Below are positions 2,971 through 58,541 of a DNA stretch of 64,000 nt, one piece after another. The notes beneath the pieces were generated by a model. That model made no database searches. It saw only the letters and a program-made list of their open reading frames with translations, and was not told the DNA's origin. A program made the position numbers and the translations under genes. Source of the DNA: Bdellovibrionales bacterium (GTDB lineage Bacteria; Bdellovibrionota; Bdellovibrionia; Bdellovibrionales; JAUICD01); the NCBI GenBank assembly GCA_965203275.1, contig OZ241865.1:416001-480000 (forward strand), in the 5' to 3' direction. The first letter of the stretch is position 1; each line of letters begins with the position of its first letter.

Positions 2971-2975
2971 CATTT

Positions 2976-3749
2976 TTTCACTAAAAGTGGTCTAGCCTCT
3001 GGCTACTTTCTGGCAATGACCGCAATGGCTTTCGCCATTGGCAAAATGGTCATTGCCTAGAAAGCCTGACCACTTTTAGTAATGAGGATCCATTTCTCAT
3101 TTAACACCATGTTAAGGAAAAAGTTCCTTCATCGCAACTCGCATGCTCCCTAAAAACATTTGAGAAGCATACCTTGTTTCCCTAACATGGTGTCAGAAGC
3201 AAGGAGATCCGCTCTACTCAAAATGAGCAGATTTTTGAGGCATTGCTCTGACAGCTTACGCTGTCCAAAAAGAGCAATACCTCAAAAATCCGTTTATTTT
3301 TAGTAGGAAGGATCCTTTCCTTTTTTAACACAATATTAAGGAAAAAGTTCCTTCTTAAATGCTGGCAACCTCAAAAGTCCGTTTACTTTTAGTAGGGAGG
3401 ATCTCTTCGTTTTTTTACACAATGTTAAGGAAAATATCCTTCTAATAACAGTTAGCCCTACGGCTACCGCCGTCATCAAAGGCTAACTGCCTAGAAAATC
3501 CATTTATTTTGAGTAGGGGAGGATCCTTTTATTTCTTTACACTATGTTAAGGAAAAATTTCTTTTATTGCCTTAAGAGCAAACAAGCATACAAATGAAAC
3601 TCTTTTTCCTTAACATGTGGTTAAGAGACGATGAGATCCTTCCTACTAAAAGTGGTCAAGCTTTCTAGGCAATGACCATTTTGCCAATGGCGAAAGCCAT
3701 TGCGGTCATTGCCAGAAAGTAGCCAGAGGCTAGACCACTTTTAGTGAAA
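2976..3749. repeat. cluster of structured ~145-nt palindromic elements (cluster 1)
   Basis: Bounded by inverted copies TTTCACTAAAAGTGGTC...TGTTAAGGAA and TTCCTTAAC...GACCACTTTTAGTGAAA; internal partial copies and linkers; lies between convergent genes. Confidence 0.9.
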
Positions 3750-4172
3750 TTAACCGAGATTGGATCTGATTGTCTTAAAAAAAGTCACTTGATTACCTTT
3801 CTGAGACCCTGAATATTCAATGCGATCACTTAAATTTTTAACAAGGTGGATACCCATCCCTCCCCCTGACCTGTCTTCTATATTCCCTTCAGGAAGCTCA
3901 GGTGCTTGCCTTAGTAAATTAAAGGGTGGGGCAAAATCGTGAACACTAACCTTGATCTGTCCATCTTGAATACAAGCAACAATAGTCACTGGCCCCTTAG
4001 GATTACCATAAGAAAAAGAATTTAATACAAGCTCTTCTAATGAAACCTCTAAATCAAAAAGACTTTTAGGATTGACATTGTTTTTTTCACAAAAAGAATG
4101 AAATCCTTCAGCACACTTTGGAAATTCTTTTTCAAAATTGTTTAAAATAGATTTGAATTCTAATACACTCAT
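3750..4172 (-). CDS. anti-sigma factor / Ser-Thr kinase-like HATPase_c protein (RsbW-like)
   Basis: Motifs LEELVLNSFSY, VHDFAPPFN, GGMGIHLVKNLSD. Confidence 0.85.
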   Translation of the reverse strand: MSVLEFKSILNNFEKEFPKCAEGFHSFCEKNNVNPKSLFDLEVSLEELVLNSFSYGNPKGPVTIVACIQDGQIKVSVHDFAPPFNLLRQAPELPEGNIEDRSGGGMGIHLVKNLSDRIEYSGSQKGNQVTFFKTIRSNLG

Positions 4173-14893: not shown

Positions 14894-15022
14894 CATAACC
14901 ATCAAAAATAAGTTTGACTTTTATAAAAATGCAGAGTATCCTATTTAAAGAAATCACATTATATTTGATATATTTAGATTTTGATAAGAATTACTTATAG
15001 TTTACAGATGTGGAGGTATTTT

Positions 15023-15598
15023 ATGGAAATACTCATTACAACAGGCTTTTTTACTGTGACAGCTTGGTATTTAACGCGAGCTGTTGCACATATAGATAAG
15101 AGATTTGAGGCTATGGATAAAAGATTTGAGGCTATGGATAAAAGATTTGATGACTTTAAGGAGGGGTCCAATAAGAGATTTAATGACTTTAAGGAGAGTA
15201 TCAATAAAAGGCTTGATGACTTTAAGGAGAATATCAATGAGAAATTTGATGGTGTTAATAAGAAATTTGATGATGTCAATAAGAAAATTGATGATGCTAA
15301 GGAGGAGTCCAATAGAAAATTTGATAATATAGATAAGAAAATTGATGATGCTAAGGAGGAGTCCAATAGAAAATTTGATAATATAGATAAGAAAATCGAT
15401 GATGCTAAGGAGGAGTCCAATAGAAAATTTGATGATTTTAAGTACTTCTTTAAGGAGTTAATTGCTCCTATCAATGAAAAGTTAAATAACCATATCACTG
15501 ATACTGACAAAAAAATTGATCATCTTCAAAATAATGTCAAAGAGATCAACCACAAAATAGATGAGATCAAGGTGCTTCTCACTCAGAATCAAAAATAA
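15023..15598 (+). CDS. membrane-anchored coiled-coil repeat protein (Bdr/DUF1640-like)
   Basis: GGAGG RBS; N-terminal TM; DKRFEAM repeats and 3 x 54-bp KKIDDAKEESNRKFD(NID) repeats. Confidence 0.8.
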   Translation: MEILITTGFFTVTAWYLTRAVAHIDKRFEAMDKRFEAMDKRFDDFKEGSNKRFNDFKESINKRLDDFKENINEKFDGVNKKFDDVNKKIDDAKEESNRKFDNIDKKIDDAKEESNRKFDNIDKKIDDAKEESNRKFDDFKYFFKELIAPINEKLNNHITDTDKKIDHLQNNVKEINHKIDEIKVLLTQNQK

Positions 15599-15636: not shown

Positions 15637-16217
15637 ATCCGGGATCTGGGATCCGGCAACCCGGCATCTAAATGAACTTTTTCCTTAACATCGTGTTAAA
15701 AAATGAGGAGATCCTCCTCTACTCAAAATAAATGGATTTTCTAGGCAGTTAGCCTTTGATCAACGGCGATAAGCCGTTGGGCTAACTGCCAGAAAACATG
15801 CCAGAGGCATGATTTATTTTGAGTGAAACAACTGCCTTGTTTCCTTAACATGTGGTCAAAAAACGAAGAGATCCTCCCTACTCAAAATAAATGGATTTTC
15901 TAGGCAGTTAGCCTTTGATCAACGGCGATAAGCCGTTGGGCTAACTGCCAGAAAACATGCCAGAGGCATGATGCATTTTGAGTGAAACAACTAACTCTCT
16001 ACTAAAAGTGGTCAAGCTTTCTAGGTTGCCAGCATTTGAGAAGGCGATAGCCTTCGGCTGGCAACCAGAAAGTAGCCAGAGGCTAGACCACTTTTAGTGA
16101 ACCAGTGAACCAAGGAACTTTTTCCTTAACATGTAGTCAAGAAACGAAGGGATCCTCCCTACTAAAAGTAAACGGACTTTTGAGATAGCCAGCCTTTGAT
16201 CGACGGCGAGAGCCGTC
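15637..16217. repeat. structured element cluster 2 (two near-identical full copies at 15681-15829 and 15841-15989 plus variants)
   Basis: TTCCTTAACA...ACTCAAAATAAAT...CAACGGC GATAA GCCGTTG...TTTTGAGTGAAAC; last copy continues at 17618-17674 beyond the IS. Confidence 0.9.
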
Positions 16218-17617
16218 GAGCTTGTCCCTGATATCGGTGAAAATAGACGGCTCATAAATTAGTTTTTAATTGTTTTTTCTTTTTGTCAATAATAATTTTT
16301 TTTAAACTTTGTTCTAATTGTTCTAAATCTTTAAATCCTTTAATGCTTTTGAAATGTTTTTCTGCTTCCAATAGACTCACAGCAGACCATCTTAAAACTT
16401 GATCTGAAGAAGAACTCCAATTCTTTACCCTCCGAACTTTTTCCCTCACAACTGAAAAAACAGACTCAATAGGATTTGTCGATGATAATGACCTCCTTAA
16501 AAGTAATGAAACTCCAAGCTTGATCGTTGTCAGTGTCTCCATCTCTGCCTCTTTTAAAGATGTGAATGCTGAATGATTGACCCGCTTTAACCAGCTTAAT
16601 AAAGACTCATGCTCTAACTTCGATGACAACTCATCTGGCATACCATGTAACTTCTTCCAACGACTCTTAAACTCTATGTGACGACTTGGAGGTAAGCAAC
16701 TCAGAATATTTCTCTCTTTATGCTGAATACAACGCTGAACTACTGAACGATCTGAAAATACTCTATCTATTCCCTTCCTTAATGCTTTGCTACCATCAAT
16801 CACAAAAAGATAACCCTTCTCTTTATCAAGACCACGACCTATAAGTCCCTCCAGAAGATCACGGCAAACTTCCCAACTCTCTGTATTGCCTTCTTTAAGA
16901 CCTAATATAACCTTCTTACCTTGATCTGTGATTCCTAAGGCCACTATAACCAGCGTAGAACCAATACCCACTCCATCTATCATTATCGCTGGAAACCTGT
17001 ACTTACTTAAATCACGATTGTTAATCGACTCAAGGGCTTGTTTAGATGACTTATTAAAAACTCTACTCACACTACTCCTAGAAAGTTTAAGCCCTCCTGA
17101 AATATCATCTAAAAGATGATTGTAATTCCGTGATGAAACTCCACTCATGGCATGTTTTAAAACACGATCACTGAGTATGTCATAGTGTTGAAGGGCTGAA
17201 TAGATCTTAAGCCTCACTTCACGACCTGACTGCTTAACACGAGGCTTCCTAACCTGCAACTTTTGACCACCTGCAAGTATGCTACCTTTATCACTACCAG
17301 CTCTATGATATGGTGTATCTCTATGACGACCATAACGCTCACCGCAAAGCTCTAATAGCTCTGCTTCAAAAAAACCATAGACCGAACAAAGAATAGATGA
17401 CTTGATCTCATCCTCTACAATCTGACGAATTTCTGACAAAGTATTGGCTGAAACTTGAAATGAATGACTATTTTTGGTACACTTCATAATGGCTCCTTTC
17501 TTTTTATTTTTAAAAGTTAATTGTTAATAAAATTTGGTTGGCTGAAATATGCCAACCAGGAGCCTTCTATCTTAACATCTTCTCTAAGAAAAATTCACCG
17601 AATTATAGGACATGCTC
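16218..17617 (-). mobile_element. IS256-family insertion sequence (1400 bp)
   Basis: Imperfect TIRs GAGCTTGTCCCTGATATCGGTGAAAAT / rc GAGCATGTCCTATAATTCGGTGAATTT; 8-bp target duplication GAGCCGTC at 16210-16217 and 17618-17625. Confidence 0.92.
16252..17487 (-). CDS. IS256-family (Mutator-type) DDE transposase
   Basis: MIDGV, VALGI...G.K.ILGL, FVIDGSKAL, QRCIQHKERN, STNPIES. Confidence 0.93.
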   Translation of the reverse strand: MKCTKNSHSFQVSANTLSEIRQIVEDEIKSSILCSVYGFFEAELLELCGERYGRHRDTPYHRAGSDKGSILAGGQKLQVRKPRVKQSGREVRLKIYSALQHYDILSDRVLKHAMSGVSSRNYNHLLDDISGGLKLSRSSVSRVFNKSSKQALESINNRDLSKYRFPAIMIDGVGIGSTLVIVALGITDQGKKVILGLKEGNTESWEVCRDLLEGLIGRGLDKEKGYLFVIDGSKALRKGIDRVFSDRSVVQRCIQHKERNILSCLPPSRHIEFKSRWKKLHGMPDELSSKLEHESLLSWLKRVNHSAFTSLKEAEMETLTTIKLGVSLLLRRSLSSTNPIESVFSVVREKVRRVKNWSSSSDQVLRWSAVSLLEAEKHFKSIKGFKDLEQLEQSLKKIIIDKKKKQLKTNL

Positions 17618-17868
17618 GAGCCGTCGGGCTGGCTATCCAAAAGCAGCCAGAGGCTGGTTTACTTTTAGTGAAACAGACAAATGTAGATATTAATATAGAC
17701 TATGGTTCAATTTGAGACAGTTTTTGAAAAAAATTAATTATTTTTGCATTTCTACCGATATAATTTGAGAAAGGTATAGAAGCAAAAAAACGAGTATAAA
17801 ATATATTCAAAGATAACAGAGCAGAACAAAACAAAAATTAGCTCAGTTAGAATATAATAAAAGGTATT

Positions 17869-21920: not shown

Positions 21921-22292
21921 TTATCTTCCTTTACTTTGTAGTTCAAACAATTTATCTAGCCTATCATTAATTTTATCCAGCCGATGATTGACCTGCTCTG
22001 CTAATTTATCAACCTTTTGATCCAGTGCTTTGAGATCACTTTTTACTTCTTTGATCTGCTCAGTAAACTTTTGATCCAGTGCTTTGAGATCACTTTTTAC
22101 TTCTTTGATTTGCTCAGTAAACTTTTGATCCAGTTCTTTATACTGACTTGGAATATGATTAGTGACTTGGTTTTCTATATGCTTTAGCCTTGTATAAATA
22201 GGCACTAGCAAAAGACGCAATATAATTATCAAACTGGCAAAACCACCTAACAAACTAGCAACTAAGACAAGGTATTCTGTAAAATTTCCCAT
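21921..22292 (-). CDS. membrane-anchored coiled-coil protein, paralog 3
   Basis: AGGAGG RBS; TM helix followed by KALDQKFTEQIKEVKSDL repeats. Confidence 0.85.
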   Translation of the reverse strand: MGNFTEYLVLVASLLGGFASLIIILRLLLVPIYTRLKHIENQVTNHIPSQYKELDQKFTEQIKEVKSDLKALDQKFTEQIKEVKSDLKALDQKVDKLAEQVNHRLDKINDRLDKLFELQSKGR

Positions 22293-22310
22293 GATGCCTC
22301 CTTTATTTTT

Positions 22311-22670
22311 TTAGTTTCGTTCTTGAATTTTCATTAATACTTCAAATATTGTATCAAGCCGATGATTAAGCTGTTCTGCTAATTTATCCACCTTTTGATC
22401 AAGTGCCTTGAGATCACTTTTTACTTCCTTGATTTGCTCAGTAAACTTTTGATCCAGTGCCTTGAGATCACTTTTTACTTCTTTAATTTGCTCAGTAAAC
22501 TTTAGGTCCAGTTCTTTATACTGACTTGGAATATGATTAGTGACCTGGTCTTCTATATGCTTTAACCTGGTATAAATAGGCACTAGCAAAAGACGCAGTA
22601 TAATAATCAAACTGGCAAAACCACCTAACAAACTCACAGCTAAAACAAGGTATTCTGTAAAATTTCCCAT
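22311..22670 (-). CDS. membrane-anchored coiled-coil protein, paralog 2
   Basis: Near-identical to neighbours, same RBS spacer. Confidence 0.85.
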   Translation of the reverse strand: MGNFTEYLVLAVSLLGGFASLIIILRLLLVPIYTRLKHIEDQVTNHIPSQYKELDLKFTEQIKEVKSDLKALDQKFTEQIKEVKSDLKALDQKVDKLAEQLNHRLDTIFEVLMKIQERN

Positions 22671-22688
22671 GATGCCTCCTTTATTTTT

Positions 22689-23081
22689 TTAGTTTCGTTC
22701 TTGAATTTTCATTAATACTTCAAATATTGTATCAAGCCGATGATTAAGCTGTTCTGCTAATTTATCCACCTTTTGATCCAATGCCTTGAGATCACTTTTT
22801 ACTTCCTTGATTTGCTCAGTAAACTTTTGATCCAGTGCTTTGAGATCACTTTTTACTTCCTTGATTTGCTCAGTAAACTTTTGATCCAGTGCTTTAATTT
22901 GCTCAGTAAACTTTAGATCTAGTTCTTTATACTGACTTGGAATATGATTAGTGACCTGGTCTTCTATATGCTTTAGCCTTGTATAAATAGGCCCTAGCAA
23001 AAGACGCAGTATAATAATCAAACTGGCAAAACCACCTAACAAACTCACAACTAAAACAAGGTATTCTGTAAAATTTCCCAT
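22689..23081 (-). CDS. membrane-anchored coiled-coil protein, paralog 1
   Basis: Near-identical to neighbours with one extra 11-aa repeat. Confidence 0.85.
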   Translation of the reverse strand: MGNFTEYLVLVVSLLGGFASLIIILRLLLGPIYTRLKHIEDQVTNHIPSQYKELDLKFTEQIKALDQKFTEQIKEVKSDLKALDQKFTEQIKEVKSDLKALDQKVDKLAEQLNHRLDTIFEVLMKIQERN

Positions 23082-23200
23082 GATGCCTCCTTTATTTTTT
23101 TAGTTTCGTTCTTGAATTTTCAACATTTCAATTATTTATTTTTTAGTATTAAAATATGATGCTGATAATAGTATATCTTAATTACTCACTCCTTGCAAGT

Positions 23201-23665
23201 GTTTCACTAAAAGTGCTTGGCTCACTAAAAGTAAACGGATTTTTGAGGCAATCAGCCTTTGATCGACGGCGAGAGCCAAAAGGTGTAAGAAAAAACTTTT
23301 TCCTTAACATGGTGTTTATCCGGGATCTGGGATCTGGGATCCGGCATCCGGCAGACAGGCAAGAATGAAGCGAATATCTTGTTTCCCTAACATGGAGTTA
23401 AGAGACGAGAGGATCCTCCTTACTCAAAGTGAACAGGCTTTCTAGGTTGCCAGCCTTGATGAAGGAACTTTTTCCTTAACATGGTGTTAAAAAACGAAGA
23501 TATCCTCTTTACTAAAAATAAACGGATTTTTGAGGCATTGCTCTTTTTAGACAGCGTAAGCTGTCAGAGCAATGCCCAAAAACAGCCAGAGGCTGGTTTA
23601 TTTTGAGTGAAATATTAAGAAAAAAAAGTTTCATCCACAGACCGTTTGCTCTTAAGGCAATAAAA
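23201..23665. repeat. structured element cluster 3 with heptamer tract
   Basis: Full copy 23472-23612 (GGCATTGCTC/GAGCAATGCC stem, GACAGC GTAA GCTGTC hairpin); GGGATCT tract near 23319-23352. Confidence 0.85.
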
Positions 23666-24831: not shown

Positions 24832-25284
24832 ATGTTGAGATATAAGATTTCAGGAATTATTGTCATTTGTTTTTGTATAGGGTGTTTGCCAAAGGCCTCA
24901 GATCAGTTAGAAAGAGGTCCTGTTTCAATACAGCAACTCAAAAAGCAAAGAGGAAATCCTCAAAGTATCCAACAAACAGCCTCAGGACAAACTGTCCATC
25001 AATATCGTTCAGGAGAAAATTTTCAAGTTGATCAAGAAGGTCAAGTCACCTATACCTATCGCAATCCTACACAAGAAGAGCAATCATTGCAATATTGGCT
25101 GACCCGTTGGAGAGAGCAAACATATCATTTCACTGCCATAAAAGAAAATAAAACTCACCTTCCTGAAAGTCTTTACTATATTAATTTAGATAACAATGAA
25201 CGATTTGTTTATGATCAAGCTATGGACAAAGTGGTGCGAGTTATTTTTGAGCTTGAAACAGAAAGAGACCCTACTATTCACTAA
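24832..25284 (+). CDS. hypothetical lipoprotein
   Basis: Lipobox-like CIGC; stop codon lies inside the element end TTCACTAAAAG. Confidence 0.7.
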   Translation: MLRYKISGIIVICFCIGCLPKASDQLERGPVSIQQLKKQRGNPQSIQQTASGQTVHQYRSGENFQVDQEGQVTYTYRNPTQEEQSLQYWLTRWREQTYHFTAIKENKTHLPESLYYINLDNNERFVYDQAMDKVVRVIFELETERDPTIH

Positions 25285-25935
25285 AAGTGGTCTATTTCAC
25301 TCAAAGTGAACTGACCTCTGGTCACTTTCTGGCGATGACCACGACGGCTTTCGCCGTCGATAAAATGGTCATCACCTAGAAAGCCTGACCACTTTTAGTA
25401 GGGAGGAACCCTTCGTTTTTTTACTCCATGTTAAGGAGTTGTTTCACTCAAAGTGAACTGGCCTCTGGCCACTTTTGGACAATGACCGCAACGGCTTTCG
25501 CCGTTGACAAAATGGTCATTGTCTCAAAAGTCCGTTTACTTTTAGTAGGAAGGATCTCCTCGTTTTTTTACTCCATGTTAAGGAAACAAGATTTCGTTTT
25601 TTTGTTTTTTTTATTTTTTTAGATTCTGCGTAACTCTCAAAAAAAAGTAATTAAGAGGAGGATGGGGGCAGAGGGATACTGGAGATCTTCCGCAGACCCG
25701 CTTGCTTCTTAAAAGCATTTTAGAAGCATATCTTGTTTCCTTAACATGGTGTAAAAGAATAAAAGGATCCTTCTCTACTCAAAATGAGCGGATTTTTTAG
25801 GTGTTGCCTATTTTGTCAAAGGCGAAAGCCTTTGCAGGCAACACCAAAAAACACACCAGCAGTGTGGCTCATTTTGAGTGAAATGTTAAGGAAAAAGTTC
25901 TTTCTGATGGCGGGTTGCCGGATCCCAGATCCCGG
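25277..25935. repeat. structured element cluster 4
   Basis: Two reverse-orientation copies, a ~170-bp linker, a forward copy at 25737-25883 and a heptamer tract. Confidence 0.88.
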
Positions 25936-26019: not shown

Positions 26020-26157
26020 TATTTCCTTTTGTTGCCGGGTTGCCAGATCCCAGATCCCAGATCCCAGAAGAAAGACCCTATCATCCTTTAACATCATGTT
26101 AAAAAAAGAAACCCTTATATTGTAAACATCAAAGTCAAACCAATACATTCCAATACA

Positions 26158-38493: not shown

Positions 38494-39120
38494 TTCCCTA
38501 AAATTGAACTAGCCTCTGGCTACTTTTAGTAGGAAGAATCCTCTCGTCTCTTTACACGATGTTAAGGAAACAAGACATTCGCTTCATTCTTGCCTGTCTG
38601 CCGGGTTGCCGGATTGCCGGATCCCGGATAAACACGATGTTAAGGAAACAAGATTTCCTTTTTTTGTTTTTTTTATTTTTTTAGATTCTGCGTAACTTTC
38701 AAACAAGAAGTAATTTAGAGGGAGGATGGGGCAGTGTGGGCCTGGAGATCTTCCGCAAATTGAGCTTGCTCTTTAAAAGCAAGCTCAATTGAGGACTTCG
38801 GAAGGCTCACACTGCCCCATCCTCAAGTAAAAACAAAATAGAAAAGCAGAATCGAAGGGCGGTGGGTGGGGTTAGGGAGTTAGCTGTTTCACTTGAAATG
38901 AGCCACACCTCTGCTTCACTAAAAGTAAACTAGCCTCTGGCTACTTTTAGTAGGAAGAATCCTCTCGTCTCTTTACACGATGTTAAGGAAACAAGACATT
39001 CGCTTCATTCTTGCCTGTCTGCCGGGTTGCCGGATTGCCGGATCCCGGATAAACACGATGTTAAGGAAAAAGTTCCTTTATCGCAATCCGCTTGCTCTTA
39101 AGGTAATAAAAGAAATTTTC
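38494..39120. repeat. structured element cluster 5 with 142-bp direct duplication and a ~100-nt hairpin
   Basis: 38507-38648 equals 38928-39069; long inverted repeat at 38722-38824. Confidence 0.88.
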
Positions 39121-42245: not shown

Positions 42246-42617
42246 TTCACTCAAAGTGGTCTATTTCACTCAAAGTGAACTGACCTCTGGTCACTTTCTG
42301 GCGATGACCACGACGGCTCTCGCCGTCGATAAAATGGTCATCGCCTAGAAAGCCTGTTCACTTTGAGTAGGGAGGATCCTTTTCTTTTTTAACACGATGT
42401 TAAGGAAAAAGTTCCTTCTTACACCTGATTGCCAGATCCCGGATCCCATATCCCAGATCCCGGGCTTAACATGGTGTAAAGGAATAAAAGGATCCTTCTC
42501 TACTCAAAATGAGCGGATTTTTTAGGTGTTGCCTATTTTGTCAAAGGTGTAAGCCTTTGCAGGCAACACCAAAAAACACACCAGCGGTGTGGCTCATTTT
42601 GAGTGAAATGTTAAGAA
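42246..42617. repeat. structured element cluster 6a
   Basis: Reverse copy, heptamer tract, then a forward copy closely matching cluster 4. Confidence 0.85.
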
Positions 42618-42701
42618 AACACCCTTATTATTATATAATATAGCCTAACTTGAAAAACCTGTATGTTTTTAAAGAAAAGCCTTACTTTGGACCTATTATT
42701 G

Positions 42702-43014
42702 TCTAACTTCGTTAATCTTCATCTACCCGTACGTACCTCTTTCAGAGATACGTGAATTGTCCCCCTCAAAGTTTCCCTTCCTTGAATCTTCTATCTCTAA
42801 TTGCATAAACCCACCAGGTTAAGCCTATTTCAGAGAAATGGAAGGTCAACTTTGAGGTGATCGGTCAGAAGTTTATTGCATAACATCCTAAATATATGCT
42901 TTTTGTTGTATATATTATTCTCAATCCTTATTTTGGGCCTTCTATCATCTAACTTCGTTAATCTTCATCTACCCGTACGTACCTCTTTCAGAGATACGTG
43001 AATTGTCCCCCTCA
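42702..43014. repeat. 67-bp exact direct repeat (42702-42768 and 42948-43014)
   Basis: TCTAACTTCGTTAATCTTCATCTACCCGTACGTACCTCTTTCAGAGATACGTGAATTGTCCCCCTCA occurs twice. Confidence 0.9.
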
Positions 43015-43017
43015 TTG

Positions 43018-43368
43018 TTTCACTCAAAATGAGCCACACCGCTGGTGTGTTTTTGGGCATTGCTCTTTTTAGACAGCGTATAGCTGTCAGAGCAAACGTC
43101 AGAAGGAAATCTTTTTCCTTAACATTGTGTTAAGAAATGAGGACATCCTCCTTCCTAAAATTGAACAGGCTTTTGAGACAGTTAGCCTTTGATCGACGGC
43201 GAGAGCCGTCGGGCTAACTGTCCAAAAGTAGCCAGAGGCTAGTTCAATTTTAGGGAAACAGAGGTTGGTTTACTTTTAGTGAACGAAAGCCTTCGGCTGG
43301 CAACCAGAAAGTGACCAGAGGTCAGACCACTTTTAGTGAACCAACGGCATGATGCATTTTGAGTGAAA
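43018..43368. repeat. structured element cluster 6b
   Basis: Full copy at about 43115-43259 with outer stem CCTAAAATTGAAC/GTTCAATTTTAGG, plus stacked 3' fragments. Confidence 0.85.
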
Positions 43369-44414: not shown

Positions 44415-44567
44415 CCGGGATCTGGGATCCGGCAACCCGGGATCTGGGATCCGGCAACCCGGGATCTGGGATCCGGCAACCCGGGATCTGGGATCCGGCA
44501 ACCCGGGATCTGGGATCCGGCAACCCGGGATCTGGGATCCGGCAACCCGGGATCTGGGATCCGGCAA
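44415..44567. repeat. 7 x 22-bp tandem repeat CCGGGATCTGGGATCCGGCAAC
   Basis: Perfect units starting 44415, 44437 ... 44547, built from heptamer subunits. Confidence 0.95.
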
Positions 44568-44588
44568 TTAGGTGTAAGAAGGAACTTT

Positions 44589-44732
44589 TTCCTTAACATG
44601 TAGTCAAAAAACAAGGATATCCTTTCTACTAAAAGTAAATGGACTTTTGAGGTAGCCAGCCTTTTACGACGGAGAGAGCCGTCGGGCTGGCTACCCAAAA
44701 GTGACCAGAGGTCAGTTTACTTTTAGTGAAAA
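44589..44732 (+). repeat. structured element, full copy (cluster 7)
   Basis: GGTAGCCAGCC/GGCTGGCTACC stem, TGACC AGA GGTCA hairpin, ends TTTTAGTGAAA. Confidence 0.85.
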
Positions 44733-44748
44733 AAAACGGAGGTTTATT

Positions 44749-48746: not shown

Positions 48747-49325
48747 TTTCACTAAAAGTAAACTGACCTCTGGCCACTTTTGGGGAGCAAGCGGACTGCG
48801 ATAAAGGAACTTTTTCCTTAACATGGTATTTATCCGGGATCTGGGATCTGGCATCTGGCATCCGGGATCTGGGATCTGGGATCTGGGATCCGGGATCCAG
48901 CAACCGGCAAAAAAAGGAAATCTTGTTTCCTTAACATGTAGTTAAGAGACGAGGAGATCCTCCCCTACTCAAAATGCATAATTTTTTGAGGCAATGACCA
49001 TTTTGCCAATGGCGAAAGCCATTGCGGTCATTGCCCAAAAACATGCCAGAGGCATGATGCATTTTGAGTGAAACAACTAACTCCCTACTAAAAGTAAACG
49101 GACTTTTGAGGTTGCCAGCATTTAAGAAGGCGAAAGCCTTCGGCTGGCAACCCAAAAGTGACCAGAGGTCAGTTTACTTTTAGTGAAAATCAAATGAGGC
49201 AATGACCATTTTGTCAATGGCGAAAGCCATTGCGGTCATTGCCCAAAAACATGCCAGAGGCATGATGCATTTTGAGTGAAATGTTAAGGAAAAAGTGTCT
49301 TCTGATGCCGGGTTGCCAGATCCCT
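48747..49325. repeat. structured element cluster 8 with a tract of about 10 heptamers (48836-48908)
   Basis: Tandem forward copies with ACTCAAAATGCAT/ATGCATTTTGAGT and ACTAAAAGTAAAC/GTTTACTTTTAGT outer stems. Confidence 0.88.
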
Positions 49326-49392: not shown

Positions 49393-50394
49393 TTATTTCT
49401 TCAGCTTGAGAATGTCATCTTTGGACAAACCTGTCATTGTAGAGATCAATGAAATATTGAGATTTTCTTTCAACATATTTAGTGCTACTTTCTCCATTCC
49501 TTCCTTACGACCTTTCTTCATCCCTTTCTCCATTCCTTTCTCCATTCCTTTCTCCATTCCTTTCTCCATTCCTTTCTCCATTCCTTTCTCCATTCCTTCC
49601 TTACGACCTTTCTTCATCCCTTTCTTCATTCCTTCTTCATAAGCACCCTCTTCTCTGGCTGCTTGATCTTTTCTGTCTCTCTCTTTTACCATTGCAAGCT
49701 CCTGTAATGTCTCATCTTTTGATAATATCCATAAATGCTTTGCTGCCTCTGCCATAATACCTCCCTTGTTTTGAAAATTGGTATACTCCTTTAAATCCAT
49801 ATTACCAGAGTTCTTTAAAAGATAACACCAATCTGCCTTTTTGTCAAATAATTCATGCAACCTTGACTGAAACTTGCCTAATTCCACAATGACAAAACAC
49901 AATCCACGAGACATAATCACTTCTGGTGGTTTTGTCCGACGGATATTGCAGATATGATAGTAATCCTTTATCCCTGCAAATTCTTTTAAATTAGCTGTTG
50001 TAAAAACAAGTGAATACACAGGAAGTAATTGATTAAAATCTTCGCCTTTCTTTATCTGACCAGAATAAGCCCTAGAAGCATAAACTAATATCCGATCTGT
50101 AAAAAACTTTTGACTTGTCGTCTGAACTTCTACATGGACAATCTCTGTATTTTGAAGAACGCCTCTGATCCGTCTTCTTAATTTCACACGCAAATCTAAA
50201 GTAAAGGATTTGTATTCGTCTGGAACTTTATCGGGAAGAAGCTCTGTGTTTAATAATGAAACACCCTCTATCACAGAACCTTTAGGCAAAGGTACAAAAT
50301 TCTCTACCAGTGAAATTAAAAGGTCTTCTCTCTTTTCAAAAAAAGCTTTGAAAATAGCATCTATTGTTAATTGTAATAAAACTCTCTCTGTCAT
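49393..50394 (-). CDS. Rpn-family (recombination-promoting nuclease / PD-(D/E)XK) protein
   Basis: DAIFKAFF, LDLRV, HVEVQ, RILVYASR, IVELGKF; C-terminal (E/K)KGM repeats and ALNMLKE...ISTMTGLS tail. Confidence 0.9.
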   Translation of the reverse strand: MTERVLLQLTIDAIFKAFFEKREDLLISLVENFVPLPKGSVIEGVSLLNTELLPDKVPDEYKSFTLDLRVKLRRRIRGVLQNTEIVHVEVQTTSQKFFTDRILVYASRAYSGQIKKGEDFNQLLPVYSLVFTTANLKEFAGIKDYYHICNIRRTKPPEVIMSRGLCFVIVELGKFQSRLHELFDKKADWCYLLKNSGNMDLKEYTNFQNKGGIMAEAAKHLWILSKDETLQELAMVKERDRKDQAAREEGAYEEGMKKGMKKGRKEGMEKGMEKGMEKGMEKGMEKGMEKGMKKGRKEGMEKVALNMLKENLNISLISTMTGLSKDDILKLKK

Positions 50395-50638: not shown

Positions 50639-50651
50639 GCCGTTATTTATT

Positions 50652-51086
50652 CTCACTAAAAGTAAACCAGCCTCTGGCTGTTTTTGGGCAATCAGCCCGA
50701 CGGCTCTCGCCGTCGATCAAAGGCTGATTGCCTCAAAAATCCGTTTATTTTTAGTAGGAAGAATCCTCTTGTCTCTTTACACGATGTTAAGGAAACAAGA
50801 TGTTTACTTCACGTCGATCAAATGGTCATCGCCTAGTGTTGTTACATGGCAAGCTTCAGAGAAGCTTGCTGTCTGACCACTTTTAGTAAGGAGGATCTCT
50901 TCGTTTTTTGACTACATGTTAAGGAAAACATCCTTCATTTTTTAGACCTACTCGCTCTTGAGACAATAAAAGAAAATTTTCCTTAACATGGTGTCAGAAG
51001 CAAGGAGATTCGCCCTACTCAAAATGAACAAGCTTTTGAGGTGGCCAGCCTTTTACGACGGCGTGAGCCGTCGGGCTAACTGCTCA
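50652..51086. repeat. structured element cluster 9 (last copy interrupted by the 153-bp array, resumes at 52459-52490)
   Basis: ACTCAAAATGAAC before the array is complementary to GTTCATTTTGAGT after it. Confidence 0.85.
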
Positions 51087-52463
51087 TTACCATTCGCATC
51101 CAGATTTTTTATTTGTAAGCACAGAGTTTCAAAGCCAAATAAGATAAAGGGTTGTAAAAACTAATGATATAAATGGGAAAGAGTCTGGTCTCAGGGCAAT
51201 GATTTTGAAATTTAAGAAATAAATTGAAGATCCAGCTCATTACCATTCGCATCCAGATTTTTTATTTGTAAGCACAGAGTTTCAAAGCCAAATAAGATAA
51301 AGGGTTGTAAAAACTAATGATATAAATGGGAAAGAGTCTGGTCTCAGGGCAATGATTTTGAAATTTAAGAAATAAATTGAAGATCCAGCTCATTACCATT
51401 CGCATCCAGATTTTTTATTTGTAAGCACAGAGTTTCAAAGCCAAATAAGATAAAGGGTTGTAAAAACTAATGATATAAATGGGAAAGAGTCTGGTCTCAG
51501 GGCAATGATTTTGAAATTTAAGAAATAAATTGAAGATCCAGCTCATTACCATTCGCATCCAGATTTTTTATTTGTAAGCACAGAGTTTCAAAGCCAAATA
51601 AGATAAAGGATTGTAAAAACTAATGATATAAATGGGAAAGAGTCTGGTCTCAGGGCAATGATTTTGAAATTTAAGAAATAAATTGAAGATCCAGCTCATT
51701 ACCATTCGCATCCAGATTTTTTATTTGTAAGCACAGAGTTTCAAAGCCAAATAAGATAAAGGGTTGTAAAAACTAATGATATAAATGGGAAAGAGTCTGG
51801 TCTCAGGGCAATGATTTTGAAATTTAAGAAATAAATTGAAGATCCAGCTCATTACCATTCGCATCCAGATTTTTTATTTGTAAGCACAGAGTTTCAAAGC
51901 CAAATAAGATAAAGGGTTGTAAAAACTAATGATATAAATGGGAAAGAGTCTGGTCTCAGGGCAATGATTTTGAAATTTAAGAAATAAATTGAAGATCCAG
52001 CTCATTACCATTCGCATCCAGATTTTTTATTTGTAAGCACAGAGTTTCAAAGCCAAATAAGATAAAGGATTGTAAAAACTAATGATATAAATGGGAAAGA
52101 GTCTGGTCTCAGGGCAATGATTTTGAAATTTAAGAAATAAATTGAAGATCCAGCTCATTACCATTCGCATCCAGATTTTTTATTTGTAAGCACAGAGTTT
52201 CAAAGCCAAATAAGATAAAGGATTGTAAAAACTAATGATATAAATGGGAAAGAGTCTGGTCTCAGGGCAATGATTTTGAAATTTAAGAAATAAATTGAAG
52301 ATCCAGCTCATTACCATTCGCATCCAGATTTTTTATTTGTAAGCACAGAGTTTCAAAGCCAAATAAGATAAAGGATTGTAAAAACTAATGATATAAATGG
52401 GAAAGAGTCTGGTCTCAGGGCAATGATTTTGAAATTTAAGAAATAAATTGAAGATCCAGCTCA
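51082..52463. repeat. tandem array, 9 x 153 bp plus terminal GCTCA
   Basis: Units start at 51082, 51235, 51388, 51541, 51694, 51847, 52000, 52153 and 52306; identical except one G/A site. Confidence 0.97.
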
Positions 52464-52718
52464 AAAGTGGCCAGTTCATTTTGAGTGAAACAGAGGTCAG
52501 ACCACTTTTAGTGAAAAAGAAGGTGTGGTTCATTTTGAGTGAAAAAGGTAGGCTTTGACTATTGTCTCTTGAGTTTGCAAGCCAATAGTTTGCTTTGACG
52601 TTGATACTCGATAATAAGCTACATATTGTTTGATATTCAAGTTGTGTCTCCCACCTTGATTTACTTCAAAGTGCAACACAGCTTTAAGAAAGTCAAAAAA
52701 ATACGTAGCTAATTGGTC

Positions 52719-53451: not shown

Positions 53452-53896
53452 AATATCTTGTTTCCTTAACATGGTGTTAAGAAACGAAGAGATCCTCCCC
53501 TACTCAAAGTGAACAGACTTTCTAGGCGATGACCATTTTATCGATGGCGAAAGCCATCGTGGTCATCGCCCAGGGTGTAAGAAGGAACTTTTTCCTTAAC
53601 ATGGTGTTAAGAAAAGAGGAGATCCTCCTTACTAAAAATAAACGGATTTTTGAGGCAATCAGCCTTTGATCGACGGCGTGAGCCGTCGGGCTGATTGCCC
53701 AAAAACAGCCAGAGGTTGGTTTATTTTTAGTGAAACAAATGACCATTTTGCCAATGGCGAAAGCCATTGCGGTCATTGCCAGAAAGTAGCCAGAGGCTAG
53801 ACCACTTTTAGTGAACCAGTGAAACAGGCCACTTTTAGTGAACCAGTGAAACAGGCCACTTTTAGTGAACCAGTGAAACAGACCACTTTTAGTGAA
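53452..53896. repeat. structured element cluster 10 ending in 3.5 x 27-bp repeat of the element terminus
   Basis: Full copy at about 53592-53735; CCACTTTTAGTGAACCAGTGAAACAGG units at 53802, 53829, 53856 and partial 53883. Confidence 0.88.
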
Positions 53897-56156: not shown

Positions 56157-56274
56157 GATCCGGGATCTGGGATCTGGGATCCGGGATCTGGGATCTGGGA
56201 TCCGGGATCCGGAATCTGGCATCCGGGATCCGGGATCTGGGATCCGGGATCCGGCAATTGGGCAACCCGGCATC
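56157..56274. repeat. heptamer tract (GGGATCT/GGGATCC/GGCATCC), about 14 in-phase units plus degenerate ones
   Basis: gggatct gggatct gggatcc gggatct gggatct gggatcc gggatcc ggaatct ggcatcc ... Confidence 0.92.
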
Positions 56275-56313
56275 AGGTCCTAAAGCATTGATTGTAATGA
56301 ATTTTTTCATCTA

Positions 56314-56363
56314 AAAAATTTCCTCCCAAGCCCTGGCGGGTTTTTAGAAAGGAGGAAATTTTT
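56314..56363 (+). promoter_or_regulatory. RBS-sequestering hairpin
   Basis: AAAAATTTCCTCC (56314-56326) is the perfect reverse complement of GGAGGAAATTTTT (56351-56363), which abuts ATG 56364. Confidence 0.7.
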
Positions 56364-56669
56364 ATGACGATGAAAAAATTCAAAACTTACCAATTAGCTA
56401 CTGAATTTTATCGTAATTCTAAAAAATTACACCTGAAAGAGCCTCATAGAAGTCAATTTCGAAGGGCTGTCTCAAGTATTGTACTTAACTTAGCTGAAGG
56501 ATCTGCTAAACCTACAGCAAAAGATCGTAGGAAATTTTACTATATTAGCCTTGGTTCTCTAAGAGAAGTTCAAGCAATATTAGATTTGGAGCTTATTGGT
56601 TGTATGGAATTAGCAAAACAAGCTGATAAATTAGGAGCTTATTTATACAAGTTGTGTAAAAACACTTAA
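56364..56669 (+). CDS. four-helix-bundle protein (23S rRNA-IVP / TIGR02436-like family)
   Basis: QFRRAVSSIVLNLAEG...RRKFYYISLGSLREV signature. Confidence 0.9.
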   Translation: MTMKKFKTYQLATEFYRNSKKLHLKEPHRSQFRRAVSSIVLNLAEGSAKPTAKDRRKFYYISLGSLREVQAILDLELIGCMELAKQADKLGAYLYKLCKNT

Positions 56670-56685
56670 AATCAAATTTAATTTT

Positions 56686-57719
56686 CCCGGGATCCGGTAT
56701 CTGGGATCCGGCAGCCGGCAACCCGGCATCAGAAGGAAAACTTTTTCCTTAACATCGTGTTAAAAAACGAGGAGATCCTCCCCTACTCAAAATGAGCGGA
56801 TTTTTTAGATGTTGCCTATTTTGTCAAAGGCGAAAGCCATTGCGGTCATTGCCCAAAAGTGGCCAGAGGCCAGTTCACTTTGAGTGAACCAACGGCATTG
56901 CTCTTTTAATATAATTTTAAAGGCATTTTGTTTCCTTAACATCGTGTAAAGAGACGAGAGGGTCCTTTCTACTAAAAGTGGTCAAGCTTTCTAGGCAATG
57001 ACCATTTTGCCAATGGCGAAAGCCATTGCGGTCATTGCCAAAAAGTAGCCAGAGGCTAGACCACTTTTAGTGAGCCAATGCCCAAAAACAGCCAGAGGCT
57101 GGTTTATTTTTAGTGAAAAAGATGAGAAGGCGAAAGCCTTCGGCTGACAACCCAAAAGTGACCAGAGGTCAGTTTACTTTGAGTGAAAATCAAATAAGAC
57201 AATGACCATTTTGCCAATGGCGAAATAAAAAGTGAAATAAATATCTTATTTCCTTAACATGGTGTTAAGAAACGAAGAGATCCTCCCTACTCAAAGTGAA
57301 CAGGCTTTCTAGGCGATGACTATTTTATCGATGTGAAATAAACATCTTGTTTCCTTAACATGATTTTCATCCGGGATCTGGGATCAGGCAACACGGCATC
57401 AGAAAGGACTTTTTCCTTAACATGGTGTTAAGAAATGAGGACATCCTCCTTCCTAAAATTGAACAAGCTTTTGAGGCGATGACCATTTTATCGATGTGAA
57501 ATAAACATCTTGTTTCCTTAACATGATTTTCATCCGGGATCTGGGATCAGGCAACACGGCATCAGAAAGGACTTTTTCCTTAACATGTGGTTAAAAAACG
57601 AAGATATCCTCCCTACTCAAAGTGAACAGGCTTTCTAGGCGATGACTATTTTATCGATGGCGAAAGCCATCGTGGTCATCGCCAGAAAGTGACCAGAGGT
57701 CAGTTCACTTTGAGTGAAA
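56686..57719. repeat. heptamer tract followed by structured element cluster 11
   Basis: gggatcc ggtatct gggatcc ggcagcc ggcaacc, then several forward copies including chimeras and an internal duplication of roughly 100 bp. Confidence 0.88.
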
Positions 57720-58541
57720 AGAGTTGGGAGTTAAAGGTCCATCCCAAGAATAATTTTTTTCTACAGCATAATTATGTAAGTTACTTATTCTGTTTTCAAA
57801 ATGAGGATGTGTAGATAAAAAATCTGGTATTTGATCTAAAAAGCTTCCTTCCTGCTCTTCAGACATTCTTTGAAAAAAGCTTTTACTTCCATTAACATGG
57901 CCATACTTTTTATAAAGACAATCTAAGCCAAAATAATCAGCTTGTACTTCTTGTTCTCTTATGAATCGTCGCCCTGCCAAAAAATCAATAGAATGACTAT
58001 AACCACCAGAAGGTGAAACTAAAGAAACAACCATCATCCATATTATATGCAACCCTGCCTGATGAATGACATGCCTGTGATACAAATGCCCTAACTCATG
58101 GCAGATCACCATAGCTATTTCATTTTCTGATTGTGCTTTTTCAATTAAACCTTGTGTGAGCAACATCCTTCCACCTACTGTCATATAAGCATTCTGAGAA
58201 GTTGTCTCTAAAGTATCTACTTTGAGTTTGAGATGAGGTTCTGATGTAAAAGATTGCCACAATTCATTTGCTAAATGAATGACTTCTGGTTTTGTTTGTA
58301 TTAAAAAATTAGAATCTGACTCAAATCGAAAAACTTCACTCCCCCATCTCATTTCCATCTCTGGTGTGATATAGTGAACAAGCCAACCTAAAAGCAAATG
58401 CATAATGAAAAAAGCTGTAGCAATAAGAAGCATTGCTGGTAATAGTATCTGATAAAGAGCTACCAAAGGATGTTCTTTAGGTGTATTAATTCCTTCTGGA
58501 ATTTCTTTAGGGACATACAAAATAAAACTCCTTTTAAACAT
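57705..58541 (-). CDS. M48 family zinc metallopeptidase
   Basis: NAY..GG, HELGH, QEVQAD, FLSTHP...RI. Confidence 0.9.
   Translation of the reverse strand: MFKRSFILYVPKEIPEGINTPKEHPLVALYQILLPAMLLIATAFFIMHLLLGWLVHYITPEMEMRWGSEVFRFESDSNFLIQTKPEVIHLANELWQSFTSEPHLKLKVDTLETTSQNAYMTVGGRMLLTQGLIEKAQSENEIAMVICHELGHLYHRHVIHQAGLHIIWMMVVSLVSPSGGYSHSIDFLAGRRFIREQEVQADYFGLDCLYKKYGHVNGSKSFFQRMSEEQEGSFLDQIPDFLSTHPHFENRISNLHNYAVEKNYSWDGPLTPNSFHSK

What the first reader, a model, noticed from the sequence alone, without database searches (positions are those of the whole stretch)
15681..15829. Dispersed ~145-150 nt element family whose copies keep one fold through compensatory changes in every stem
Dozens of full or partial copies occur in about 11 intergenic clusters (2976-3749, 15637-17674, 23201-23665, 25277-25935, 38494-39120, 42246-43368, 44589-44732, 48747-49325, 50652-52543, 53452-53896, 56686-57719). 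The layout is TTCCTTAACA-N3-(TGTTAA), a GATCC-containing hairpin, 13-bp stem P1, a short stem with an A bulge, 10-11-bp stem P2, an asymmetric T-rich loop, hairpin P3, a 5-6-bp hairpin P4 with AGA loop, then P1' and GAAA. P1 variants: ACTCAAAATAAAT/ATTTATTTTGAGT, ACTAAAAGTGGTC/GACCACTTTTAGT, ACTCAAAATGCAT/ATGCATTTTGAGT, CCTAAAATTGAAC/GTTCAATTTTAGG, ACTCAAAGTGAAC/GTTCACTTTGAGT. P2 variants: GGCAATGACC/GGTCATTGCC, GGCAGTTAGCC/GGCTAACTGCC, GGCAATCAGCC/GGCTGATTGCC, GGCATTGCTC/GAGCAATGCC, GGTGTTGCCT/AGGCAACACC, GGTAGCCAGCC/GGCTGGCTACC. P3 variants: AATGGC-GAAA-GCCATT, CGACGGC-GAGA/GTGA-GCCGTCG, GACAGC-GTAA-GCTGTC, CAAAGGC-GAAA-GCCTTTG. P4 variants: TAGCC/GGCTA, TGACC/GGTCA, CAGCC/GGCTG, ATGCC/GGCAT. 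P3 loops are mostly GNRA on one strand only. This much covariation among paralogs in one genome indicates selection on a single-stranded structure. Inference: a structure-recognised mobile or recombination substrate, or a multicopy ncRNA. It is much larger than a REP and I do not recognise it as a known family.
Basis: partly seen in the sequence, partly recalled or inferred. Interest (0 to 1): 0.88.

Follow-up and report, generated by a model that had tools for sequence, protein, structure and literature searches.

The report
Self-nesting Y-shaped hairpin DNA repeat
About 7% of this small bacterial genome is made of copies and pieces of one 150-base non-coding unit that folds into a Y-shaped hairpin, lands inside older copies of itself and trims neighbouring DNA from one sharp end; it behaves like a selfish mobile repeat, but no enzyme known to move such repeats could be found.

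Summary
The element is real. There are 18 full copies in the window and about 600 full copies genome-wide, with about 1,580 hits covering 7.3% of a Bdellovibrionales-type genome. The three-way-junction core (P1-P4) is held by selection on pairing: paired arms stay linked more tightly than adjacent blocks, across 247 allele combinations. The two 5' hairpins are not: the first has no compensatory change. G.T over A.C mismatches (125:28) mark one working strand. GNNA rather than GNRA loops lean towards single-stranded DNA over RNA. It behaves as a mobile repeat. Copies nest in older copies (outer halves match in 35 of 79, against 10.8 expected). No site is shared with the sister species (0 of 15). 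Its sharp 3' end sits against stop codons, tRNA ends and inside truncated genes, which suggests one-ended deletion. There is no Rfam match. No RAYT/Y1, IS110, reverse transcriptase or TnpB was found in the genome, and Rpn and four-helix-bundle genes fail as partners. Verdict: a new, genus-restricted, REP/BIME-like non-autonomous element with an unusually elaborate fold and an unidentified enzyme. This scan reported the same family several times before on other DNA of this genome.

The parts
15667..15679 (+). variable purine-rich leader (10-17 nt) of the reference copy; differs between copies and partly resembles the target DNA it replaced
15680..15691 (+). near-invariant 5' motif TTTCC(T/C)TAACAT; a sequence tag, not a covarying stem
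15685..15699 (+). hairpin Pa (6 bp, 3-nt loop); no compensatory change
15705..15719 (+). hairpin Pb (GATC loop region); weakly kept, 69.5% paired
15721..15733 (+). P1 5' arm (13 bp; 9 fully paired alleles with 5 or more copies)
15734..15736 (+). 3-nt unpaired linker of the three-way junction
15737..15760 (+). P2a 5' arm (6 bp), invariant bulged A (15743), P2 5' arm (11 bp), 6-nt T-rich bulge
15761..15779 (+). hairpin P3 (7 bp) with a C-G-closed G..A loop
15780..15796 (+). P2' and P2a' arms
15797..15811 (+). hairpin P4 with AGA loop; commonest landing site of another copy's 3' end
15812..15824 (+). P1' arm
15825..15831 (+). sharp 3' end and short tail (GAAACAA type)
15836..15990 (+). second full copy, chimeric P1/P1'
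15995..16105 (+). 5'-truncated copy
16118..17676 (+). copy split by an IS256 (16218-17617) with an 8-bp target duplication (16210-16217, 17618-17625)
2973..3752 (.). cluster: 2 full copies and 4 partial copies, both strands
23224..23615 (+). cluster: stacked 5' fragments, then one full copy
25280..25897 (.). cluster: 3 full copies and fragments, beside tRNA-Arg
38497..39072 (-). cluster of fragments only
42249..43364 (.). cluster: 3 full copies; the one at 43110-43261 is followed by three stacked 3' fragments
44584..44734 (+). single full copy behind a heptamer array
48751..49295 (.). cluster: one full copy, stacked 3' fragments, inverted 5' head
50648..52540 (.). cluster: one full copy, plus a copy split by a 153-bp x9 array (51082-52463), plus 3' fragments
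53458..53893 (+). cluster: 5' fragment, full copy, stacked 3' fragments
56740..57722 (+). cluster: 3 full copies with 5' and 3' fragments, behind a four-helix-bundle gene

Best explanation
A non-autonomous, structure-recognised mobile DNA that works like REP/BIME elements. Shown: one strand folds into a Y-shaped three-way junction behind a fixed 5' tag; copies recombine stem alleles freely while keeping pairing; copies land inside older copies and other repeats; one end is sharp and the other carries a variable leader; positions are species-specific. Inferred: the folded single strand is bound in trans by a nick-and-strand-transfer enzyme that is lost or unrecognised. Insertion joins the 3' end precisely and resolves the 5' side through about 10-17 nt of imperfect homology, replacing some target. 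The 3' end stays reactive and is rejoined outward, deleting flanking DNA until purifying selection stops it at a stop codon, promoter, tRNA end or CRISPR repeat. I favour DNA over RNA as the working molecule at about 3:1.
For: Fold-shaped linkage: normalised mutual information P1-P1' 0.79 against P1-P2a 0.71 and P1-P3 0.35; P2-P2' 0.86 against P2-P3 0.70; 247 allele combinations in 577 of 598 copies parsed. Single mismatches G.T 125 vs A.C 28, recurrent alleles 14 vs 3. P3 loops are G..A closed by C-G in 572 of 583 typed copies, a third of them GNYA; d(cGNNAg) is a stable DNA loop motif (title of Nakano 2002 in the reference list of PMC3201870). Order 5'-fragment > full > 3'-fragment 214 and 234 times, against 42 and 27 in reverse. 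Outer halves share a P1 type in 35 of 79 typed trios (of 103), mean 10.8 in 2,000 shuffles, none reaching 35. Empty paralogous sites outside the element for 41 of 640 copies, including one clean insertion and one with 4 nt lost in a four-helix-bundle gene. 0 of 15 syntenic gaps with an element have it in both species. 87 copies fall in 30 identical groups more than 5 kb apart. 3' ends with unique flank lie within 20 nt of a convergent stop in 43 of 212 (random 2.7%) and 10 of 67 in G001 (2.2%). 3' ends lie 0-9 nt behind tRNA CCA in 4 of 36 and 4 of 31 genes, expected about 0.5 and 0.1. 3' ends are joined inside Rpn and four-helix-bundle genes with 49-637 nt missing.
Against: No enzyme: no Y1_Tnp, RVT_1 or IS110 match in G000, and no convincing HUH motif in its ORFs. 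No fixed cleavage dinucleotide at 504 3' junctions, unlike TnpA-REP. Many junction classes recur letter for letter, so trios and junctions are partly inherited copies, not independent events. In G001 the P3 loop is often closed by T-A, which weakens the DNA-loop argument. Both strands fold about equally well. No strand bias to the replichore could be shown (327 of 640; GC skew is scrambled). Abutting stop codons could also reflect targeting or survival rather than erosion; 5' ends do it too, in 8 of 64. No empty allele appeared among the listed joints in four runs.
Confidence: 0.5

Rival explanations
1. No dedicated enzyme: spread and nesting come from replication template-switching and gene conversion at a strong fold. 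Polymerase leaves the host template at short homology to the tail, copies a folded donor strand and returns at homology to the leader.
For: Leaders and tails resemble the lost target and carry slippage-type duplications. No fixed junction dinucleotide. No enzyme found. Arm-to-arm copying could itself produce multi-base compensatory alleles.
Against: Does not explain the near-invariant unpaired 5' tag, the invariant bulged A, the fixed junction geometry or the strand asymmetry of mismatches. Does not readily explain colonising hundreds of unrelated sites separately in two species.
Confidence: 0.25
2. SINE-like retroelement: an RNA copy is reverse-transcribed from its fixed 3' end, primed by nicks or RNA ends (tRNA CCA), with truncation and template jumps.
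For: Fixed 3' end with stacked 5'-truncated pieces. Antisense 3' ends directly after tRNA CCA, flush in 3 G001 genes. Joins inside real genes are mostly in the sense orientation, 17 vs 5 sites by my hand count. G.T tolerance. G001 has 3 RT matches.
Against: No RT in G000, the genome with the most copies and with dispersed identical ones. The two G001 RT genes I could view are not flanked by the element. 5'-only fragments are nearly as common as 3'-only (564 vs 706), and outer halves match as nesting predicts. A third of loops are GNYA.
Confidence: 0.12
3. The partner is a resident multicopy gene: an Rpn (PD-(D/E)XK) nuclease or the four-helix-bundle protein.
For: In G000 the Rpn-containing family has an element upstream in 28 and downstream in 37 of 52 ORFs, against 124 and 183 of 1,515 others (the family includes ORFs that overlap elements). 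Four-helix-bundle matches occur in G000, G001 and G004 and not in G002 or G003.
Against: G003 has 16 Rpn matches and no element. In G001 only 1 of 11 and 2 of 6 Rpn ORFs lie near one. Four-helix-bundle genes are flanked by heptamer arrays, the 3 G004 loci viewed have no element, and they occur in 58 of 151 order genomes. The element inserts into and truncates both gene types.
Confidence: 0.08
4. A host-useful multicopy non-coding RNA or cis-regulatory element (terminator, stabiliser).
For: Deep covariation, 57% GNRA loops, position near stop codons.
Against: No shared sites between species, no enrichment beside the same orthologues (22 shared, p=0.34), either orientation inside co-directional gene pairs, no promoter match, no Rfam match, most pieces truncated.
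Confidence: 0.05

Closest known systems
REP / BIME / REPIN elements with RAYT (TnpA-REP) Y1 transposases (passages read in PMC8266576, PMC3333891, PMC3116915)
   Same: High-copy, extragenic, strand-specific fold with a conserved tag and a conserved bulge; mosaic clusters; head-to-head doublets with spacers; compensatory changes among paralogues.
   Different: 150-nt three-way junction rather than a 20-40-nt palindrome; 12-nt tag, no GTAG-type tetranucleotide; no RAYT in the genome; no CT/CA junction rule; Russian-doll self-insertion; polar deletion from one end.
IS91-family ends and one-ended transposition (passages read in PMC13181058)
   Same: Two unlike ends, one sharp and one variable; no clean target duplication; adjacent DNA rearranged.
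   Different: No Y2 transposase found (control silent). In the largest junction class the GAAAC tail comes from the donor, not from a target tetranucleotide.
Prokaryotic MITEs: Correia/NEMIS, RUP, ERIC, Rickettsia RPE (passages of the review PMC10969869; others seen as search listings)
   Same: About 150 bp, non-coding, folded, hundreds of intergenic copies in a host-type genome.
   Different: No terminal inverted repeat beyond an inconstant 7-bp match without covariation; no fixed target duplication; ends unrelated to resident IS256 and IS1634; 0 of 640 full copies inside long ORFs, unlike RPE.
Small dispersed repeats (SDR) of Nostoc (named in earlier scan notes; paper not found in the library, not read)
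   Same: Self-nesting hairpin repeats without a known enzyme (as those notes describe).
   Different: About five times longer, branched, with target loss at junctions.

Membership tests
REP/REPIN-RAYT | short (20-40 nt) palindrome | tested here: not met
   150-nt three-way junction
REP/REPIN-RAYT | conserved tetranucleotide (GTAG type) 5' of the stem | tested here: not met
   invariant columns form a 12-nt TTTCC(T/C)TAACAT tag about 30 nt upstream of P1
REP/REPIN-RAYT | cognate Y1 RAYT gene flanked by the repeat | tested here: not met
   0 Y1_Tnp matches in G000 (one contig, 90.4% complete); the single G001 match is IS200-like and not flanked by the element
REP/REPIN-RAYT | cleavage and rejoining at a fixed dinucleotide (CT or CA) | tested here: not met
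   504 3' junctions show no common host dinucleotide; donor tails often end in C, so a donor-side rule is not excluded
REP/REPIN-RAYT | high-copy extragenic repeat with strand-specific fold and conserved bulge | tested here: met
MITE | terminal inverted repeats | tested here: not met
   5' TTGTTTC is in a minority of copies and does not covary with the 3' tail
MITE | fixed-length target-site duplication | tested here: not met
   41 empty-site comparisons give offsets from -22 to +40; same picture in G001
MITE | ends shared with a resident IS | tested here: not met
   IS256 and IS1634 termini are unrelated; other G001-only IS families not compared
IS91 / ISCR derivative | Y2 HUH transposase | tested here: inconclusive
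   0 matches, but the control rang nowhere
IS91 / ISCR derivative | target tetranucleotide beside oriIS | tested here: not met
   host P4 sites lack the GAAA tail
IS110 bridge RNA | IS110 recombinase; variable loops on constant stems | tested here: not met
   0 Transposase_20 matches; here stems vary and loops are constant
Retroelement (SINE-like, group II, retron) | reverse transcriptase in the genome | tested here: not met
   0 RVT_1 in G000, no YxDD motif hit; 3 matches in G001
Known structured RNA (Rfam 15) | match at gathering score | tested here: not met
   only 2 tRNAs in the window; 7 sub-threshold hairpin hits at most 21.4 bits
Known structured RNA (Rfam 15) | discrete expressed transcript | not testable with these tools
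   no RNA holder listed

The most novel reading that the evidence does not exclude
The founding member of a class of single-stranded-DNA replicators recognised by a branched (three-way junction) fold and moved by an enzyme outside the known HUH, DDE, IS110 and RT families, possibly one of the 40 shared proteins with no family or a co-opted host enzyme. Its reactive 3' end would act as a polar, selection-limited eraser that has reshaped intergenic DNA and scrambled gene order.
Probability: 0.25. Interest if true: 0.82.

Novelty: new variant of a known kind. Interest (0 to 1): 0.6.

Why it matters
How REP-like repeats spread without a recognisable transposase is an open question. This family gives an unusually rich natural data set: about 600 full copies, 247 stem combinations, hundreds of readable junctions and a sister species with independent sites. 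It makes sharp bench predictions (which strand, which tag, which end reacts). If a new enzyme is behind it, that would be a new transposition chemistry reading DNA shape rather than sequence. If not, it would show that a fold alone can replicate through host copying errors. Limits: uncultured host, one genus, no activity shown.

Tried and rejected
Enzyme searches that failed or did not track the element: Y1_Tnp; RVT_1; Y2_Tnp (15, control silent); IS110; GIY-YIG, one match per genome in 612-653-aa frames; DUF559, one weak match in 3 of 5 genomes; TnpB-type domain only inside large Cas-locus ORFs; GxxExxY 0 of 5; Cas1 only in ordinary CRISPR loci, with no spacer of 100 matching the element beyond one 18-nt partial hit; two tyrosine recombinases, both Xer-like, the short one present in 116 of 151 order genomes. 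200 of 217 basic, soluble proteins shared by G000 and G001 were scanned and 99 of those without a hit rescanned; no new mobilising enzyme, 40 without any family. Only 2.4 of 2.94 Mb of G001 entered that screen. Link to synteny breaks: significant in a small sample (14 of 16 vs 16 of 36) but gone once gap size was controlled (48 of 55 vs 189 of 234); rejected. Closing stem between 5' and 3' ends: no covariation. GNA triloops and a 99-bp array, noted early, were my parsing errors. Replichore bias: untestable, skew scrambled. dif-like site: no match to the element. Hammerhead-like reading: core positions vary; dropped without a formal test. G004 as a third-genus carrier: its hits lie on three small contigs, one of which carries a second rplB 96% identical to G001, so probably misbinned. 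Pattern scans of viral and metagenome contigs and BLAST of phages and plasmids: nothing. Laying four runs showed no empty allele among the listed joints. R-scape was not available.

Full report
Observation. The coordinates hold a full copy, followed by a second full copy, a 5'-truncated one and a copy split by an IS256 with an 8-bp duplication. The window is G000:C1:416001-480000 of a single 2.57-Mb contig, 35% GC. It has 18 full copies in the 11 clusters named. Genome-wide there are 598 strict full copies and 1,578 profile hits covering 7.3%. K-mer painting gives 640 full, 564 5'-only and 706 3'-only pieces, plus 1,142 short internal ones, many spurious. None of 640 full copies lies inside an ORF of 250 aa or more. 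Contigs from four public runs of three studies cover the unique DNA and stop at the cluster edges, with many contigs piling on the clusters. The repeat is therefore not peculiar to one assembly, though one run may be its source.

Structure. Copies fold into a three-way junction: P1 (13 bp), a 3-nt linker, an arm of P2a, bulged A, P2, T-rich bulge and P3, then P4 stacked before P1'. On 41 copies from G000, G001 and G004, 34 of 54 pairs change on both sides and 92.2% of cells pair; that shuffle control ignores relatedness. A stronger test is linkage. Paired arms are more tightly associated than blocks lying between them (P1-P1' 0.79, P1-P2a 0.71, P1-P3 0.35; P2a-P2a' 0.85; P2-P2' 0.86; P3-P3' 0.94; P4-P4' 0.92), across 247 allele combinations in 577 parsed copies. 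P1 and P1' types agree in 507 of 582 copies, against 82.5 by chance. Recombination shuffles modules and broken pairings are removed or repaired. The two 5' hairpins do not share this: Pa has no two-sided change and Pb pairs in 69.5%. The invariant part is the sequence tag TTTCC(T/C)TAACAT.

Strand and molecule. Loops are 333 GNRA, 195 GNYA and 44 G-N3-A of 583, all closed by C-G in G000. That fits the DNA motif d(cGNNAg), which I saw only as a reference title in PMC3201870 (passages). G001 often closes with T-A, so this is a lean, not proof. Orientation between co-directional genes is unbiased (178 vs 156) and no promoter-like site lies in the reference cluster.

Mobility. Fragments are ordered like nested dolls, and outer halves match in 35 of 79 typed trios against 10.8. 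Recurrent identical junctions mean these are not all independent. 3' ends land mostly at the P4 loop. Empty sites in paralogous DNA (41 of 640 copies; 16 distinct cases in G001) show no fixed duplication. One insertion is clean, one loses 4 nt, and most replace 5-30 nt of target by a purine-rich leader of similar length that partly resembles it. Both species carry an insertion at the same codon of the four-helix-bundle gene. In 2.4 Mb of G001 there are 387 hits, 242 full. Of 15 syntenic gaps with an element, 7 have it only in G001, 8 only in G000 and none in both.

The polar 3' end. 3' ends with unique flanks sit within 20 nt of a convergent stop codon in 43 of 212 cases (random 2.7%; 5' ends 8 of 64) and just before TTGAC in 11 of 212 (1.6%); G001 gives 10 of 67 and 3 of 67. 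They follow tRNA CCA within 0-9 nt in 4 of 36 G000 genes (38 rows less two heptamer artefacts) and 4 of 31 in G001 (36 rows less tmRNA and four odd copies), roughly 0.5 and 0.1 expected. Element ends abut 3 of 4 CRISPR arrays in G000, one clipping the repeat. Of 74 3' ends joined inside multicopy ORFs, the missing part lay within 30 nt across the cluster in 18 (many are tandem duplicates), further off in 14 (49-637 nt lost) and was absent in 42 (the set includes repeat-made pseudo-ORFs). One four-helix-bundle left junction occurs with 4 nt and with 49 nt lost on the right. I read this as outward rejoining of the 3' end, stopped by selection. Targeting near gene ends is an alternative.

Range. 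A covariance model found the element in 3 of 151 genomes of the order (20 candidates scored per genome), BLAST in 3 of 41. A pattern scan of the species-level genome set gave 19 loci, all titled Bdellovibrionales MAG. G004's hits are on three small contigs, one with a second rplB close to G001, so the family is probably confined to one genus. Viral, metagenome, phage and plasmid collections gave nothing.

Enzyme. None was identified; see Tried and rejected. Rpn genes are enriched beside elements in G000 but abundant in element-free G003. Four-helix-bundle genes belong to a separate heptamer-flanked unit found in 58 of 151 genomes. Both are victims of insertion.

Comparison. It works most like REP/BIME/REPIN DNA: single-strand recognition through a tag and a bulge, variable cut sites and mosaic amplification (passages of PMC8266576, PMC3333891, PMC3116915). 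It fails membership on size, tag, RAYT and junction rule. It shares end asymmetry with IS91 (passages of PMC13181058) and size with MITEs (passages of PMC10969869), but lacks their defining parts. Six library searches showed no description of this family; I read only their listings, the library omits most subscription papers, and no supplements were read. Statements on Rpn as toxin-antitoxin proteins, Avd likeness of four-helix bundles and Xer biology are recalled, not from a call.

Earlier scan notes describe the same family in eight other places of this genome and also found no enzyme. My nesting and covariation results predate that look-up and agree with them.

Verdict: real, a new variant of a known kind, mechanism inferred at about even odds; interest 0.6.

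Noticed in passing
window 56157-56669, 15637-15668, 26043-26068, 44415-44567, 48832-48897: Heptamer arrays (GGGATCC/GGCAACC type) flank four-helix-bundle genes (14 matches in G000, 19 each in G001 and G004) and look like a separate mobile unit with no known enzyme.
   Followed up: partly
window 51082-52463: A 153-bp unit repeated 9 times at 99% identity inside one element copy; its first 30 nt occur at 8 other places in the genome.
   Followed up: partly
window 16218-17617: IS256 inserted into an element copy; 2 of 7 full IS256 copies in G000 sit in element DNA.
   Followed up: yes
window 21970-23122 and 14981-15598: Three tandem 378-bp genes, and a relative, encoding small membrane-anchored coiled-coil proteins of a family with dozens of copies genome-wide.
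   Followed up: no
window 49393-50394: Rpn family nuclease gene; dozens of Rpn genes and C-terminal fragments in G000, several fragments starting right at an element 3' end.
   Followed up: partly
window 38650-38900, 42700-43010: Further uncharacterised repeat families (GCTTGCTC hairpin spacer, GAATCTAAAA family, ACGTATCTCTG family) that serve as insertion targets and as spacers of head-to-head doublets.
   Followed up: partly
G000:C1 238802-245700, 369700-376800, 1990534-1995500, 2266383-2278444: Four CRISPR-Cas systems (V-A-like, a type I variant, II-C-like, II-B-like by my reading of the ORFs) in a 2.6-Mb genome.
   Followed up: partly
G000 whole genome: GC skew changes sign about every 100 kb and gene order differs strongly from G001, pointing to heavy rearrangement.
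   Followed up: partly
G004 contigs C1, C4, C11: Probably misbinned from a G001-like organism (two rplB genes).
   Followed up: partly
L076:1417-1980: A 187-aa catalytic-domain-only tyrosine recombinase, single-copy in 116 of 151 genomes of the order; may be the Xer partner.
   Followed up: partly
G001:C1:2198524-2198880: Four tandem degenerate tRNA-like copies before tRNA-Trp.
   Followed up: no
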